Positions 24,578-30,678 of a stretch of DNA of 64,000 nt are shown here, piece after piece (position 1 is the first letter of the stretch; each line of letters opens with the position of its first letter). A program made the position numbers and the translations under genes. The notes below the pieces were generated by a model, which was not told the DNA's origin, made no database searches, and worked only from the letters and a program-made list of their open reading frames with translations. Source of the DNA: the human T2T-CHM13v2.0 reference genome, Homo sapiens. The stretch is from NCBI RefSeq assembly GCF_009914755.1, contig NC_060938.1, one strand, 5' to 3'.

Positions 24578-27195
24578 TAAAGGAAGGCAAGGTATCAGAG
24601 AAATGCCTCATCCCATCTCCTTGTCTGCCAGGACCCAAGACTCCCAGACCTCACCTTGGGCTCCTCATCAAACGGGCTGTACCCTCCCCCTACGCTCACC
24701 CACACGGATTGAGGCAAGGGCTGCACTTGGGAGCAAATTGCAAGGTGGGCTGGGGATCAGTGGGCAGTGCTTGCTGGGCAGGTGAGGCAGCGGACCGGAG
24801 CCAAGTGAGGCAGACGGTGTTGATTTCATTCCCACACTGCACCCAAGGGAGCTCATCTGCCCACGCTCTCACCAAGAGTGAGATCCATGTAAGATGGAGT
24901 TCAAATCTAGATCTCCCGATTCTACCACTGCAACCCAGGGCTCTTTCAGCCACACCGCAAATCACCTGTCCAAGTGCTGGACACATGCACTCTCTGCTTT
25001 TGGCAATTGCTGGAAGGAAAGCATTCGAGAACAAACTGCCACATTTGTATTTTCACAGGCCACATCCAATAGGCCAGGAGGGAGGATGCAAACCACTAAT
25101 TCATCATTTTATTTTATTTATTATTTATTTATTTATTTATTTTGAGACTTCAGAGAAGTCAGCACACAGCAGGCCATGGAAGCAAGTGGAGGACTGGGTT
25201 CCTCTCCCTGGGGGAAGAGGGGGAAGATGGCAGCCGTGGTCCCTGGCACCTGCAGAGCCATCCAGCCCTCTTCCCATCCATTCCACGGTTGGCAAACACG
25301 GAGTGTGCAGCCCTGCCCATGTGGCCCTCGGCCTGAGGATGCTGCTCCTCCTAGGGCTTAGGTAGCCACTCCTCATTGCTCAGATTTGGCAAACTGAATA
25401 AAACCAGCCCCCCACTTCTGGCCTAGCTAAAATCTGCAGTGTCTTTTAGGACGAACCTGATCCCTTATATTAATTTCCCTTATTCTCTTTATTGGCTCAA
25501 CTAATCTTCTAGGTCTTCTACCCCACTCATTCACACCAACTACTCAACTGTCAATAAACTTAAACTTAAAAAAGACTACTCGAACCAGACTTTTTCTGTA
25601 GCTCCCGCAGGGTGCAAGCCTCTCTCAATCCTCCAATCAGCTCCAGTCCTTTGGGCCCCTCACTGGGCTCTGATGAGCCAGGGCTTTGTCATGTATCTCA
25701 GTGTTTCATTTACCTTCCATTTGCTGTATGCCCCCGAAACCATCGTGTAATAAACCTTTGTCCCCTACACTGGCAGGCCCTGTCAGGCACCGTGCTGGTC
25801 TCTAGCATCCAAAGATCAATACACAAATGTCCACACTCTCTCGGGAGAGAAAAACAAAGCCCATGGAAATCAGGTAAGCACTCAAGGAGAGATTGTCAAA
25901 AATGTGATCAGCTATAGGGAGGGAGCAATGGCTCTGCCTGGGGAGGAGGTCGGAGGGCTTCTGGGAGGAGGTGCCATTTGCATTGACTTTGAAGGTTGAA
26001 TAACTGCTTGCCCAGATGGTGGGACCAGCCCAGTCACACCTGGAGGCAGAGGAGAGCCTGGATGTCTGGGGGTGTGGGAGGATGCTGGCTTGGCTAGAGG
26101 GGAGGGAGACAAAGAGGGGTGGGTGGCCAGGTTAGAGCGGGAAGAGTCTTGGAGTTCATGCTAAGACATTTAGACTTTGTCCTGGATGCAGCAGTCAGGA
26201 AGTGATAAGGTGAGACTTGTGCTTTAGGGTCATCCCTCTGCAAGCTGAGCTGGGGAGGAGGGACAGTGACAGACTGGGGAAGGGTCTGAGATAGAGGCAG
26301 AGCCAATGCAATCTGAAATAGCTGGTCACTTTCCCACCTGGCTCCTGCACTTAGGGGACCTCTACCCTTAGTCCCTCTACCCAGAACTTCCTCCCCAGTT
26401 CTAGGCTCCCCAAAACCCCCATGCAGCCTTTCTGGATCTGGGTGGGAGCCTCCTTCTGTTGAACTCCTGAATCCCTTCGCTGGGCCCATCTCTAATGGCT
26501 GAGGCCACATTCTCTCACAGTACAGTTACTGGGGACTCTGTCTCCCGCATTAGACACCGAAGGCAGGATTTTCCTTCTTTTTTTATCTTCCTGGCAGTGC
26601 CAGATGCATCGCTTTCCATGGGGTTGGATGAGTAAGCAGGTGAGCTCATGGAGGGGCTGGAGAGGCCGAGCCCAGGCCCTTCTCCTCCCTGGCTGTCTTG
26701 CCCTGGATGCCCTGTGTGCACTATATCCAGCAGGGCATGGCCAATGTGGTTTCGGACTCACCTCCTGGATCCCCAGTGCCGTAGCAGGACGCAGCACTTA
26801 TTAACGTGGCATCTGCAGGAGGAGCCTCCCCATCAGGCCAGCCGCCCAGGCACCCCCCTTCACTGATCACTCCAGTGGCCCTTTGTGAGCTACTGGGCCA
26901 GATGAAGTGGGAACACAAGTGGCAGATAAGAATGTGACCAGCTGCTCAAGCTCAGAAGAGCGCATGTCCCCTTATGCTATTTACACACCAATTTCAAACC
27001 ACAGAAACCAAAGATTAGTGCCCAACAGGCAAAAGTCCTTTAAAAAAATCAAAACTGGAGTCAAACATGAGGGCTTCTTCTGTTTCTCCTAAGTTACTGC
27101 AGAACAGGCTAGTGTTCACTAAGTGCATGCTAGATGTTAGCTACGATGACTGTTTTTTTCTTTAACTTTCTAATGCCTATGTTAGTGGTAAGTTA

Positions 27196-27390
27196 TGAGA
27201 GAACATCACATACCGGGGCCTGTGGGGGTCGGGGGCTAGGGGAGGGATAGCATTAGGAAAAATACCTAATGTAGATGATGGGTTGATGGGTGCAGCAAAC
27301 CACCATGGCACATGTATACCTATGTAACAAACCTGCACGTTCTGCACATGTACCCCAGAACTTAAAGTATAATAAAAAAATTTAAAAATA
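27196..27390 (+). mobile_element. Short L1PA 3' end
   Basis: ggagggatagcattagga...cagaacttaaagtataataaaa. Confidence 0.93.
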
Positions 27391-27492
27391 TATATATATA
27401 TATTTTTTGTTTTTCAACTTTTATTTTAGATTTGGGGGGTTCATGTGCAAGTTTGTTATGTAGGTATATTGCATGATGCTGAAGCTTGGGGT

Positions 27493-27654
27493 AATTATCT
27501 TCCAACCCCCCAAGCAGCCGTGTCAGCTTGGAGACCCTTGGGAGTCACAGCGAAGAAGGCCTGGATTTCCAGCCCTCCCCACCCCTCTCAAAGGCCTTCC
27601 ATCATTCCCCACGACCCCTTCTATTTCCCACACTATGAGGTTCCCCTGGCTGCA
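27493..27654 (+). repeat. Inverted duplication of CLMN exon 9 segment 29350-29510
   Basis: Manual alignment: 6 substitutions and one 1-nt insertion over 162 nt (~96%); ORF 27445..27669 reproduces IPHD.FYFPHYEVPLAA. Confidence 0.97.
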
Positions 27655-27737
27655 ATACCCAACGGTTAGTACACTATTCTCAGTACCTGGGTGATGGGGT
27701 CATGAAGGCTGACTCCAGCCTTGAGTTTTAAAGGACT

Positions 27738-28560
27738 TTTTATTAGTTTGTTTGTTTCTTCCTTTATTGGCTTTTTTTTCCTTTTTTTTTTTTTTTATTT
27801 TACTTTAAGTTCTGGGATACACGTACAGAGTGTGCAGGTTTGTTACATAGAAATACAAGTGTCATGGTAGTTTGCTGCACCTATCAACCCATCATCTAGG
27901 TTTTAAGGCCCGCATGCATTAGATATTTGTCCTAATGATCTCCCTCCCCTCGCCTCCCACCCCCCAACAATGTGTGTTGTTCCCCTCCCTGTGTCCATGT
28001 GTTCTCATTGTTCAACTCCCATTTATAAGTGAGGACAAGCGGTGTTTGGTTTTCTGTTCCTCTTTTAGTTTGCTGAGAATGATGGCTTCCAGCTTCATCC
28101 ATGTCCCTGCAAAGGGCATGAACTCATTCTTTTTTATGGCTGCATAGTATTCCATGGTATATATGTACCACATTTTCTTTATCCAGTCTATCACTGGGGG
28201 GCATTTGGGTTGGTTCCATGTCTTTGCTATTGTAAATAGTGTTGCAATAAACATATGTGTGCATGTATGTCTTTATAGCAGAATGATTTATATTCCTTTG
28301 GGCATATACCTCGTAATGGGATTGGTGGGTCAAATGGTATTTCTGGTTCTGAAATCAGATGGAGGAATCACCACACTGTCTTCCACAATGGTTGGACTAA
28401 TTTACAATCCCACCAATGGTGTAAAAGCATTCCTACTTCTCCACAGCCTCGCCAGCATCTATTGTTTCCTGACATAATCGCCATTCTTACTGGTGTGAGA
28501 TGGAATCTCATTGTGGTTTTGATTTGCATTTCTCTAATGATCAGTGATGGTGAGCTTTTT
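27738..28560 (-). mobile_element. L1PA (PA8-like) 3' fragment
   Basis: ORF2 tail peptides ([29 protein letters not shown]); TSD-like TTGA(G/T)TTTTAAAGGACTT at about 27721 and 28560. Confidence 0.93.
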
Positions 28561-29052
28561 TGATTTTTAAAGGACTTATTCCTGTTGGGCACTAATATTT
28601 GGTTTCTGTGTTAGAAATGTGTGTGTAACAGGATAAGGGAGATGTGCTTTCCTGATCCCACTGCCCAGGTACTGAGAATAGTATGCAACGGTTAGTTTTT
28701 CAACCCTTGCCCTGTGACAATGACTGCTTTTGAAATCATTTCTGCCCCTCCTCTGCTGGACCCTCAAAGGTGACCTCACTTGATCCTCAGAGCATCCCTG
28801 TGAGTAGGGCCAGGACTGGGGGAAAGCCAGTGAGGTGCCCGTGTGCAGGATTTCAGGAGGTGCTCACTCTCAGGTGCCAACCCTGCATTTGCCCGAGCCT
28901 CACAGTAGGTGCCTCTTTGAATTTTGCACCATAGTAGTCCCAAGGGAAGCCCCCTCATCGCTATTTTATGGAGCAAGAAGCTGAGCTTCAGACAAAGAAC
29001 TATCAAGTTTCCCAGGCAGGACCCAGGGTTCCCAAATCCCACGGTTGAGTAC

Positions 29053-30678
29053 CTGATGGCTGTCCATGGGGTCATTCTCTTTGGTCTCCCTTTGCTGGTG
29101 GTCCTCATGGGGGGCCAGTGGAGCGGGTTCTGAGGCTGGTGTGGTACCCACACCACCCCTGCTGAGATACAGCACCTGGTCGCTGGCACTGGGGAGGCTC
29201 TCTCCTGGCACCGAGGAACTGGAGCTGCTCTGAGAGCCATCGGCCTCCTCCTCCCTGGAGTCCAGGTCTGGCATATAGCCCTCTGGCTCTTCGAGATCCA
29301 TTTCTTCATTTTTTAGATCCTCCGGGTCTTCTACATAAGCCTCCAAAACTGCAGCCAGGGGAACCTCATAGTGTGGGAAATAGAAGAGGTCGTGGGGAAT
29401 GACGGAAACCTTTGAGAGGGGTGGGGAGGGCTTGAAATCCAGGCCTTCTTCGCTGTGACTCCCAAGGGTCTCCAAGCTGACACAGCTGCTTGGGGGGCTG
29501 GAAGATAATTCCTCGCCCACACCCTGGAGGTCATCGTCTTCTCCCTCTTCCTCATAATGAGGACGGGTGGACTTTCTCTTGGCCTTTTCATGCACCTCTG
29601 GCTTTTTATCCACTGGTGTCTCTTCTGGGGCTGAAGGACAGCCTTCAGCTTCTTCTCCGGAGTCCTGATGAGGTTCATGTTTGTCCATCTTAACTTGAGG
29701 CTCTGGCGAATCCTTCTTTTTGTGAGCAGATTTAATACTCCTTTTACCTAGTTTTTCAGCATGATTCTCAAAAGCCTCAGCATCCTCGTCAGGTTTTGTC
29801 TCATGAGGTGAAGGAACTTTGTTGAAAGCCTGGCTGGTAGAAGCAAAATCTATTAGGTCGCTGTTAAATTTTGAGGCTTTTAATGGGATGGCTTCAAAAT
29901 AGTCTCCCTCCTCTAAAGCTTCTACAGTCATCAGGTTAACCTTGATCTGGAAGGAATCGGCCATCACAGTATTTTCTCCTGGGGGTGAAAGAGAGTGACT
30001 TTCTTCATCGTGGCGGGCTGTACTCTCTAAAGCACCATTACAGGAAGAAGACTGAGAATTATTGTTTGTGCCCTCCACCAAAAAAATGTCACCAGCGACC
30101 TTGTCAGAGGAGGATTCTGGAATCTTCGAGGATTCCTGTTTCTGTTCCTTTTCCTCAGCAACCTCAACTGCCAAGACATGTCCATCCTGCCTCAATGATT
30201 CCTTTGCCACTCTTGGGCTCCCTTCAAAGCAAAGGGACAGGTTCTTACTGCAGAAAGGATCCTTGTAGGTGTCAGCCTCAAAGTGAACTGTTTTCTTGAT
30301 CGGCAAAGAGTTGGACCTCCCGTTCTCCTTTCTGGATGATAAAATGGAGGATTCTGGAGATGGCTCACTGATGTCGCTGGTCTTACCTGGGCCCCCTTGC
30401 AGGACCTGGTCAATAATCTGGTGCATGAACTCGGTGGAGCTGTCTGACAGCGCATGGCTGGAAACACCATCCAGGCGGAATTCCTTCATGCTCTCGGGCT
30501 TGTCACAGACAAAGACTTTGGAGGGTGGTGGGTGGCTGGTTTCATGGTTAACAGTGTAGGTACGCTCCCCATTTTCAGTCAGAACGAAGACTTTGCTCTC
30601 CTGTTCAGAAGGAGTTTCTTTGATGCGAACAAAAGTGGATTCGATAGGAACTTCTTTATCTGAATCGAAAATATCTTC
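29053..30678 (-). CDS. CLMN: Calmin exon 9 (1626 nt; acidic, serine-rich central region EDIFDSDKEV...PMDSHQ)
   Basis: Long T/GT tract then gcag|GAA acceptor; CAG|gtactc donor; core of the 625-aa ORF 28966..30843; phase 0-0. Confidence 0.95.

What the first reader, a model, noticed from the sequence alone, without database searches (positions are those of the whole stretch)
27493..29510. Inverted 161-bp copy of coding exon 9 in the next intron: a built-in exon-intron dsRNA
Seen: 27493-27654 is the reverse complement of exon 9 bases 29350-29510 (codons for LSSSPPSSCVSLE...YEVPLAA) at about 96% identity, only about 1.7 kb away. In the pre-mRNA the two can form a ~160-bp duplex whose loop contains the weak exon 9 donor (CAG|gtactc, 29053). 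Established: intronic editing-complementary sequences pairing with exons direct ADAR recoding (GRIA2 type), and long duplexes affect splicing. Here both arms are unique gene sequence rather than Alu. Inference: possible primate-specific A-to-I recoding or splicing control of calmin created by a local duplication.
Basis: partly seen in the sequence, partly recalled or inferred. Interest (0 to 1): 0.85.

Follow-up and report, generated by a model that had tools for sequence, protein, structure and literature searches.

The report
Inverted exon copy in calmin intron
A 162-base piece of a calmin coding exon was copied backwards into the next intron, so the unspliced RNA could fold into a long double strand, but nothing yet shows that the cell uses it.

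Summary
Window 27493-27654 is the reverse complement of CLMN exon 9 bases 29350-29510: 155 of 162 aligned columns match (6 substitutions, 1 indel). These are the only two copies in the whole genome.

As RNA the arms form 160 base pairs (155 Watson-Crick, 5 G.U), with one A.G mismatch and one bulge, at -347.5 kcal/mol. The duplex survives intact in the minimum-energy fold of 2851 nt of pre-mRNA. The loop is 1695 nt and holds the exon 9 donor.

The intronic arm lies at a breakpoint inside an old LINE-1-like fragment, next to two older local inverted copies. It shows junction microhomology and no poly-A or target-site duplication. I read it as a local templated insertion.

I found no evidence of function. 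No searchable paper links CLMN to RNA editing. The GTEx coding-sequence editing table of Gabay 2022 lists no CLMN site, although my positive controls were found in it. That paper already describes coding exons paired with inverted duplicates.

Verdict: a new member of a known kind, probably a neutral by-product that may be edited promiscuously. One oddity is that the exon pair is about four times less diverged than its inverted neighbours.

The parts
29350..29510 (-). Exon arm (A): 161 nt of CLMN exon 9 coding sequence. It holds 33 adenosines, 24 of which would change the amino acid if read as G.
27493..27654 (-). Intronic arm (A'): 162 nt in intron 9. As transcribed it is antisense to the exon arm (the + strand reads the coding sense). 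It holds 36 adenosines.
27655..29349 (-). 1695-nt loop between the arms. It contains the last 297 nt of exon 9, the donor, and the first 1398 nt of intron 9.
29047..29055 (-). Exon 9 donor CAG|GTACTC, matching the consensus at 6 of 9 positions.
27403..27492 (-). 3' end, with T-run, of an old LINE-1-like element ('L1old-left'). It breaks off exactly where the intronic arm begins.
28653..28720 (-). Piece B: continuation of the same repeat at the next repeat coordinate, so the element was split by everything that now lies between.
27655..27705 (+). Piece B': an inverted copy of B directly after the intronic arm (36 of 44 aligned bases match). It forms a 29-bp helix with B in the minimum-energy fold.
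27700..27738 (+). Left part of segment v, an inverted copy of 26945-27072. It was cut in two by a later repeat insertion.
28578..28660 (+). Right part of segment v (92 of 107 aligned bases match v'). A search with 76 nt of it found only two copies in the genome.
26945..27072 (+). Segment v', the partner of v.
27739..28564 (-). Later LINE-1-like insertion with a T-rich tail. It is flanked by a 13-nt direct repeat at 27726-27738 and 28565-28577. The best genome relatives are 85-88% identical.
27197..27395 (+). Younger LINE-1-like 3' end with an A tail. The best genome relatives are 92-96% identical.

Best explanation
The intronic arm is a local templated insertion. 162 nt of exon 9 were copied in inverted orientation from 1.7 kb away into a pre-existing breakpoint inside an old LINE-1-like fragment of intron 9. 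The likely mechanism is a template switch during replication or break repair. I infer that this happened within primate evolution.

The consequence is that every CLMN pre-mRNA carries two segments able to zip into a 160-bp, almost perfect duplex, closing a 1.7-kb loop that contains the exon 9 donor. The exon arm is transcribed first and the intronic arm about 1.7 kb later. The acceptor lies a further 4.6 kb downstream, so the duplex can form before intron 9 can be removed.

The most likely fate is promiscuous, multi-site deamination of both arms by nuclear ADAR at low to moderate levels. The intronic arm is then discarded with the intron. There is no selected function: this is a neutral or slightly deleterious by-product.

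What is shown: the repeat, its uniqueness, its context and the thermodynamics. What is inferred: formation in vivo, editing, age and neutrality.
For: - Repeat and uniqueness.
- Duplex: 160 pairs at -347.5 kcal/mol, against a mean of -65.5 and a best of -97.9 for 29 random 162-nt windows of intron 9.
- All 160 pairs are kept in the minimum-energy fold of the 2851-nt stretch 26850-29700.
- Context: 27403-27493 and 28653-28712 align to adjacent coordinates of two unrelated genomic copies of the same repeat (L006 145-228 then 233-292; L005 134-224 then 230-284). The resident repeat was therefore split, and the arm begins exactly at the break.
- No A-run or target-site duplication flanks the arm. 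The only flank repeat of 8 nt or more belongs to the later insertion.
- Both junctions show imperfect microhomology of 6-7 nt between the repeat and the exon sequence.
- No other exon 9 or intron sequence was co-copied.
- Known class: Gabay 2022 (passages and section 10 read) reports a 50-bp perfect exon-intron duplex in ASNS, and large coding-sequence editing clusters where an exon pairs with an inverted paralogue (CLDN9/CLDN6, TOR1B/TOR1A, HSPA1L).
- In the dsRNAscan preprint (main-text passages), edited non-repetitive dsRNAs have medians of 144 bp, 30 contiguous bp and -184.8 kcal/mol. This duplex exceeds all three.
- No function is documented.
Against: - No expression, editing or structure-probing data could be consulted, so formation and editing in vivo are untested.
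- The absence of any CLMN site from Gabay's GTEx tables argues against even promiscuous editing reaching mature mRNA. By the methods I read, that pipeline removes only paralogue-type mismatches and mixed-type clusters, so the exon arm should have been assessable.
- The 1695-nt loop is longer than the 509-nt median of edited non-repetitive dsRNAs.
- Against neutrality: the exon pair differs at 6 of 161 sites, while the adjoining inverted pairs differ at 8 of 44 and 15 of 107 (Fisher p = 0.0007). All 5 transitions leave a G.U pair rather than an A.C mismatch. This would fit maintenance of the duplex as well as a younger age.
- DNA and RNA templates cannot be told apart, because the copy holds no splice junction.
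Confidence: 0.55

Rival explanations
1. One reading: the exon-intron duplex is a selected, lineage-specific regulatory device. It directs ADAR recoding of calmin residues in exon 9, or tunes use of the exon 9 donor or nuclear retention of the transcript.
For: - The duplex is extremely stable and forms in the global fold.
- 24 of the 33 exon-arm adenosines would recode.
- The arm pair is about 4 times less diverged than the neighbouring inverted pairs B/B' and v/v' (p = 0.0007).
- 5 of 5 transitions keep pairing as G.U (1/32 if both outcomes were equally likely).
- The donor lies in the loop and mismatches the consensus at +4 to +6.
Against: - No CLMN editing site appears in the GTEx coding-sequence survey.
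- No paper links CLMN or calmin to editing.
- A long, perfect duplex gives unselective hyper-editing, which in a coding exon is more likely harmful than useful.
- There is no favoured A.C mismatch. The single mismatched adenosine faces G, a context I recall as disfavoured.
- The low divergence is equally explained by a later insertion or by arm homogenisation.
- The G.U excess rests on 5 sites, and the known excess of A>G and C>T on the non-template strand (recalled) pushes the same way.
- The donor score is within the range of the gene's other donors.
Confidence: 0.1
2. Inert repeat: the duplex rarely or never forms in cells, because of protein coating, helicases or competing local structure. 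Alternatively it forms but is not edited, so the copy has no molecular consequence at all.
For: - No CLMN sites in Gabay's tables.
- The 1.7-kb loop is long compared with edited non-repetitive dsRNAs.
- Competing inverted repeat pairs cross the A/A' pairing: 27272-27388 with 27782-27898 (117 nt, 87%), and v'/v.
Against: - At -347.5 kcal/mol, with 77 uninterrupted pairs, this far exceeds typical edited substrates.
- The exon arm, and then the intronic arm, are transcribed before the left-hand arms of both competing inverted pairs, which lie at lower coordinates (read from the coordinates).
- A gene-level table of Cuddleston 2022 (PMC9704047) has a CLMN row. From the main text I take it to be the hyper-editing table, so CLMN pre-mRNA may be reached by ADAR in brain, but the sites' positions are unknown.
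Confidence: 0.3
3. A rival for the origin only: the arm is a reverse-transcribed piece of CLMN pre-mRNA, captured by LINE-1 reverse transcriptase. This could have happened at the inversion junction of a twin-primed insertion, or by target-primed copying of the nascent host RNA at a nick.
For: - The arm is flanked by two pieces of the same repeat in opposite orientation that meet at the same repeat coordinate: 27403-27493 versus 27703-27654 on L006 (145-228 and 232-280). I recall this as the layout of a twin-primed element.
- Read on the + strand, the three inserted pieces A', B' and v are in the order and sense of the CLMN pre-mRNA (A, B, v'), with two skips. One polymerase moving 3' to 5' along one RNA would produce this.
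Against: - Piece B (28653-28720) carries the missing continuation of the repeat in the original orientation. The repeat therefore looks split, not twin-primed.
- No target-site duplication was found for such an element.
- B' matches the genomic copies at only about 74-82%, against 88% for the 3' piece.
- The three pieces differ strongly in divergence from their sources, which argues against one event.
Confidence: 0.2

Closest known systems
ASNS exon-intron duplex (Gabay et al. 2022, PMC8897444; passages seen)
   Same: A coding exon pairs with a complementary sequence in its own intron to form a long, perfectly paired dsRNA that is restricted to primates.
   Different: The ASNS duplex is 50 bp and is shown to be edited in Homininae after an A.C mismatch arose. 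The CLMN duplex is 160 bp, has no A.C mismatch, and no editing is reported.
Coding-sequence editing clusters from inverted paralogues: CLDN9/CLDN6, TOR1B/TOR1A, HSPA1L (Gabay et al. 2022, section 10 read)
   Same: Coding sequence is paired with an inverted duplicate 1-2 kb away (1741 bp for CLDN9). Long duplexes give many-site clusters.
   Different: There the partner is a neighbouring gene's exon reached through an extended 3'UTR, so the duplex persists in mRNA. Here the partner is intronic and is lost on splicing.
GRIA2-type editing complementary sequences (recalled, no call)
   Same: An intronic sequence pairs with an upstream exon in the pre-mRNA, so editing must precede splicing.
   Different: Those duplexes are short, imperfect, site-selective and deeply conserved. 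This one is long, near perfect and young, and is a straight copy of the exon.
Inverted duplicated sequences in pre-mRNA (Barak et al. 2020, PMC7006430; passages seen)
   Same: An inverted near-identical pair lies inside one pre-mRNA. Such pairs are tolerated in introns but depleted from mRNA.
   Different: Their listed human set is over 300 bp and over 96% identity, so the CLMN pair (162 bp, 95.7%) falls below it. CLMN is absent from their supplements. Most of their pairs are intron-intron.
Template-switch mutations that create hairpins (Loytynoja and Goldman 2017, PMC5453318; Monttinen and Loytynoja 2022, PMC8794818; search listing and abstract starts only)
   Same: An inverted copy of nearby sequence is inserted locally, producing a perfect stem. 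The 2022 title says such switching can also maintain stems.
   Different: As I recall, the events described there are short (tens of bases) and close together. Here the copy is 162 nt and 1.7 kb away.
LINE-1 twin priming and chimeric retrocopies (recalled, no call)
   Same: Opposed repeat pieces meet at one repeat coordinate, with foreign sequence at the junction.
   Different: No target-site duplication was found, and the original-orientation continuation of the repeat is present 1 kb away.

Membership tests
ADAR editing-complementary-sequence (ECS) exon-intron duplex | The exon pairs with a complementary intronic sequence of the same pre-mRNA. | tested here: met
   160 pairs at -347.5 kcal/mol, retained in the 2851-nt minimum-energy fold. 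This is in silico only.
ADAR editing-complementary-sequence (ECS) exon-intron duplex | A-to-I editing is observed at exon adenosines. | tested here: inconclusive
   No CLMN row in Gabay 2022's coding-sequence tables, while ASNS (30) and TOR1B (97) occurrences were found. No CLMN in the supplements of PMC5844249 or PMC12695637. REDIportal and raw reads could not be reached.
ADAR editing-complementary-sequence (ECS) exon-intron duplex | Site selectivity from an imperfect duplex (mismatches, bulges, an A.C at the target). | tested here: not met
   There is one A.G mismatch, one bulge and no A.C pair. 77 pairs are uninterrupted.
ADAR editing-complementary-sequence (ECS) exon-intron duplex | The ECS is conserved across species. 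| not testable with these tools
   No other primate or mammalian genome is held.
Inverted duplicated sequence forming long dsRNA in a pre-mRNA | Two high-identity copies in opposite orientation within one transcription unit. | tested here: met
   95.7% identity over 162 columns, with both copies inside CLMN exon 9 / intron 9.
Inverted duplicated sequence forming long dsRNA in a pre-mRNA | Clustered A>G changes on both arms. | not testable with these tools
   No read data. The only pointer is a CLMN row in a gene-level table of PMC9704047, with no positions.
Replication or repair template-switch / templated insertion | The inserted stretch is an inverted copy of nearby sequence. | tested here: met
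   The source lies 1695 nt away, and there are only two copies genome-wide.
Replication or repair template-switch / templated insertion | Microhomology at the junctions, with no retrotransposition hallmarks. | tested here: inconclusive
   Imperfect 6-7-nt similarities between the repeat and the exon at both junctions. No A-run or target-site duplication. The pre-insertion sequence is unknown.
Replication or repair template-switch / templated insertion | An ancestral empty site in an outgroup. | not testable with these tools
   No outgroup genomes are held.
LINE-1 twin-primed insertion with captured host RNA | A 3' segment plus an inverted upstream segment meeting at one element coordinate. | tested here: met
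   L006 coordinates 145-228 (27410-27493) and 232-280 (27703-27654).
LINE-1 twin-primed insertion with captured host RNA | A target-site duplication bracketing the whole insertion, with no second copy of the inverted part in original orientation. | tested here: not met
   No flank repeat of 8 nt or more was found for it. Piece B at 28653-28712 carries the same coordinates in the original orientation.

The most novel reading that the evidence does not exclude
The duplex is being kept intact, either by selection on pairing or by repeated arm-to-arm homogenisation through template switching or gene conversion. Three inverted pieces (A', B', v) lie side by side in the order and sense of the CLMN pre-mRNA, as if laid down together. 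Yet the exon-derived pair has 3.7% substitutions against 14-18% for the other two, and every transition between the arms preserves pairing as G.U. If the three arrived in one event, the intronic arm has been held close to the exon for tens of millions of years. That would make it a lineage-specific, structure-dependent control of calmin pre-mRNA, acting through hyper-editing and recoding of a disordered region, nuclear retention, or masking of the exon 9 donor region.
Probability: 0.1. Interest if true: 0.7.

Novelty: new member of a known kind. Interest (0 to 1): 0.35.

Why it matters
If the duplex forms and is edited, calmin would carry a lineage-specific cluster of up to 24 possible amino-acid changes in exon 9, created in one mutational step by a local inverted insertion. 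That would be a clean natural example of how an editing-complementary sequence is born. (Calmin was recently described as an ER-actin tether; I saw only the title and abstract start of PMC12416146 in the listing.)

If it is not edited despite 160 near-perfect pairs, it becomes a useful negative case for what protects nascent transcripts from ADAR.

It is also a practical warning. Reads from the two arms can cross-map and mimic G>A, T>C or A>C variants or 'editing' at six fixed positions of CLMN exon 9.

Tried and rejected
- **Chance or low-complexity match:** rejected (E = 1e-66 genome-wide; 1 of 12 exon parts has any second match).
- **Processed pseudogene or dispersed family:** rejected, since there are only 2 copies.
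- **Larger simple inverted duplication including the rest of exon 9 or the donor:** rejected. No further exon 9 or intron matches at word size 9-11.
- **v plus B as one diverged repeat end:** considered, then dropped. Genome copies that match B at 85-94% do not cover v, and 76 nt of v have only the local partner.
- **B' searched alone against the genome:** found only itself (1 candidate), so this was uninformative.
- **Target-site duplications for the split repeat and for the 27197-27395 insertion:** none of 8 nt or more.
- **Known RNA families in 26500-30000:** two hits far below threshold (27.9 bits against a gathering score of 211, and 20 against 200; plant miRNA families over the AT-rich tails). 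I treat them as chance.
- **Literature:**
  - 'CLMN' + 'RNA editing' + 'ADAR' gave 1 paper, on mouse methylation.
  - The six-term search was dominated by unrelated editing papers.
  - 'CLMN' + 'edit' gave 245 papers; the 30 listed were irrelevant.
  - 'calmin' + 'editing' matched 'calming' and was useless.
  - Whole-word 'calmin' + 'RNA editing' gave 0 papers.
- **Coordinate-prefix searches in supplements:** these used hg38 positions that I derived from recalled gene coordinates. They found nothing and are weak evidence.
- **Earlier findings of this scan:** not open.
- **Supplements of the dsRNAscan preprint:** That genome-wide catalogue of 5.1 million predicted dsRNAs probably lists this duplex.
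- **Supplements I could not see:** two PDF supplements and a truncated zip of Gabay 2022, and truncated files of PMC9704047.
Full report
**1. The observation**

The repeat finder reports two abutting inverted pairs: 27493-27594 with 29409-29510 (102 nt, 97%) and 27597-27654 with 29350-29407 (58 nt, 97%). A gapped alignment joins them into 162 columns with 155 matches, 6 substitutions (5 of them transitions) and one single-base indel.

BLAST gives E = 5e-56 within the window. A search of the whole 3.1-Gb assembly finds exactly two places, the intronic copy and exon 9 (E = 1e-66; 2 candidates, 2 scored). Of the 12 coding exon parts of CLMN in the window, only this part of exon 9 has any second match in the 64 kb.

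The donor is CAG|GTACTC.

**2. The RNA**

CLMN is on the minus strand. The exon arm is therefore transcribed first, and the intronic arm, read antisense to it, 1695 nt later.

The two arms co-fold into 160 pairs: 155 Watson-Crick and 5 G.U. There is one A.G mismatch (A29433 opposite G27570) and one bulged G (27596), at -347.5 kcal/mol. The same exon arm against 29 random 162-nt windows of intron 9 gives a mean of -65.5 and at best -97.9.

In the minimum-energy fold of 2851 nt of pre-mRNA (26850-29700) all 160 pairs are present. They are extended by a 29-pair helix between 27671-27702 and 28653-28684.

The exon arm has 33 adenosines, and 24 would change the amino acid if read as G. The intronic arm has 36. 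No adenosine faces a C. The one mismatched adenosine faces G.

The donor matches the consensus at 6 of 9 positions. The 11 donors in the window range from 5 to 8, and five of the other ten score 6 or less. 'Weak' is fair, but this donor is not unusual for the gene.

**3. What surrounds the intronic arm**

No tool named the repeats. I call them LINE-1-like from their A/T tails and copy numbers, and the name is my own reading.

- 27396-27492 has 1668 first-look candidates in the genome. The 39 scored hits other than the query itself are 82-89% identical.
- 27801-28560 has 14550 candidates; the 39 other scored hits are 85-88% identical.
- 27197-27385 has 2214 candidates; the 39 other scored hits are 92-96% identical.

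I aligned the region to four fetched genomic copies (L003-L006).

- 27403-27493 is the tail end of one such element on the minus strand.
- 28653-28712 continues that element at the very next coordinates (L006 145-228 then 233-292; L005 134-224 then 230-284).

The resident element was therefore split, and the intronic arm starts exactly at the break. The break now contains four things:

- the arm A';
- B' (27655-27705), an inverted copy of the element's own continuation B;
- v (27700-27738 plus 28578-28660), an inverted copy of 26945-27072, for which a 76-nt probe finds only these two copies in the genome;
- a later repeat insertion, 27739-28564, bracketed by a 13-nt direct repeat.

Both ends of A' show imperfect 6-7-nt similarity between the repeat and the exon sequence. 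No A-run or target-site duplication flanks it.

**4. Origin**

These features fit a templated insertion copied from nearby sequence, through a template switch in replication or break repair. This locus had already suffered such an event.

A reverse-transcriptase route is not excluded. The two opposed repeat pieces meet at one coordinate, as I recall for twin-primed elements. Also, A', B' and v stand in the order and sense of the CLMN pre-mRNA. Three things weigh against it: piece B is present in its original orientation, there is no target-site duplication, and the pieces differ in divergence.

**5. Age**

Substitution differences are 6 of 161 for A/A' (JC 0.038), 8 of 44 for B/B' (0.21) and 15 of 107 for v/v' (0.155). 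A differs from B and v combined with Fisher p = 0.0007, while B and v do not differ from each other (p = 0.62).

Using substitution rates recalled from the primate literature, not from any call, 3.8% suggests roughly 10-30 million years. That would place the arm within catarrhine or ape evolution. It is similar to the young neighbouring insertion at 27197-27395, and much younger than the 27739-28564 insertion that cuts v.

So there are two possibilities. Either A' is a second, later insertion at the same fragile junction, or all three pieces came together and A' has since been kept close to the exon. No other species could be examined, so 'primate-specific' remains an inference.

**6. Is it used?**

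I found no evidence that it is.

- *Papers.* No searchable paper holds CLMN together with 'RNA editing' and 'ADAR', except one unrelated mouse methylation study. The whole-word search 'calmin' with 'RNA editing' gives none.
- *Gabay et al. 2022* surveyed coding-sequence editing in 9125 GTEx samples. The three supplementary files I could read contain no 'CLMN' and no site at my estimated coordinates. ASNS (30 occurrences) and TOR1B (97 occurrences) are found in the same file. Their methods, as read, discard only paralogue-type mismatches and clusters of mixed mismatch types. The exon arm should therefore have been assessable. Two PDFs and part of a zip could not be read.
- *Other supplements.* CLMN is also absent from the supplements of PMC5844249, PMC12695637 and Barak 2020. 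Barak's human list covers only pairs over 300 bp and over 96% identity.
- *The only positive pointer* is a CLMN row in a gene-level table of Cuddleston 2022. I take it to be the hyper-editing table described in the main text. It gives no positions, and the sites may well lie in other repeats.

**7. Comparison with what is known**

The kind is established. Gabay 2022 describes a 50-bp perfect exon-intron duplex in ASNS that became edited in Homininae. It also describes large coding-sequence clusters where an exon pairs with an inverted paralogue 1-2 kb away. Barak 2020 notes that most exon editing comes from exon-intron pairing.

The dsRNAscan preprint predicts about 497,000 non-repetitive dsRNAs, of which 4,597 are edited. 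The edited ones have medians of 144 bp, 30 contiguous pairs, -184.8 kcal/mol and a 509-nt loop. The CLMN duplex exceeds the first three but has a longer loop.

The CLMN duplex is unlike GRIA2-type sites in being long, nearly perfect, young and a direct copy of the exon.

**8. Verdict**

It is best explained as a recent local templated insertion that gives CLMN pre-mRNA a built-in 160-bp duplex.

The most likely consequence is promiscuous, low-level editing before splicing, or none at all. A selected recoding or splicing role is unsupported, and I put it at about 0.1. The unexpectedly low divergence of the arms and the all-G.U pattern are the only hints in that direction. Primate alignments would settle them quickly.

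It is a new member of a known kind, of moderate interest.

Noticed in passing
26945-27072 versus 27700-27738 + 28578-28660: This is a second, older local inverted pair (92 of 107 aligned bases match, with 4 gap events). A 76-nt probe finds only these two copies in the genome, so the locus had an earlier inverted templated event.
   Followed up: partly
27655-27705 versus 28645-28705: These are inverted copies of the same stretch of the split LINE-1-like element (36 of 44 bases match). In the fold they stack under the exon-intron duplex as a 29-pair helix.
   Followed up: partly
27272-27388 versus 27782-27898 (extended: 27224-27388 versus 27782-27964): Two LINE-1-like 3' ends in opposite orientation (117 nt at 87%; 183 nt at 78%) bracket the intronic arm. 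Their pairing would cross the exon-intron duplex like a pseudoknot, but their left arm is transcribed last.
   Followed up: no
27726-27738 and 28565-28577: An exact 13-nt direct repeat brackets the 27739-28564 repeat insertion, which has a long degenerate T-rich tail at 27739-27800. This is a textbook target-site duplication.
   Followed up: yes
27650-27672, minus strand: On the transcribed strand a perfect TACTAAC lies 17 nt upstream of a TTGCAG at the very start of the intronic arm. This has the geometry of a cryptic acceptor, but the pyrimidine tract is poor. No annotated exon uses it, and the duplex would bury it.
   Followed up: no
29387, 29403, 29408, 29433, 29484, 29498 (exon 9): These are the six positions where the two arms differ. 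Cross-mapped intronic reads would mimic variants or non-A>G 'editing' here, including the apparent codon changes S394N, C399R, K416Q and L431P (numbering within the exon 9 translation).
   Followed up: no
27386-27402: The A tail of the 27197-27395 insertion and the T tail of the split older element abut through a short (AT)n run. I found no target-site duplication for either element.
   Followed up: partly
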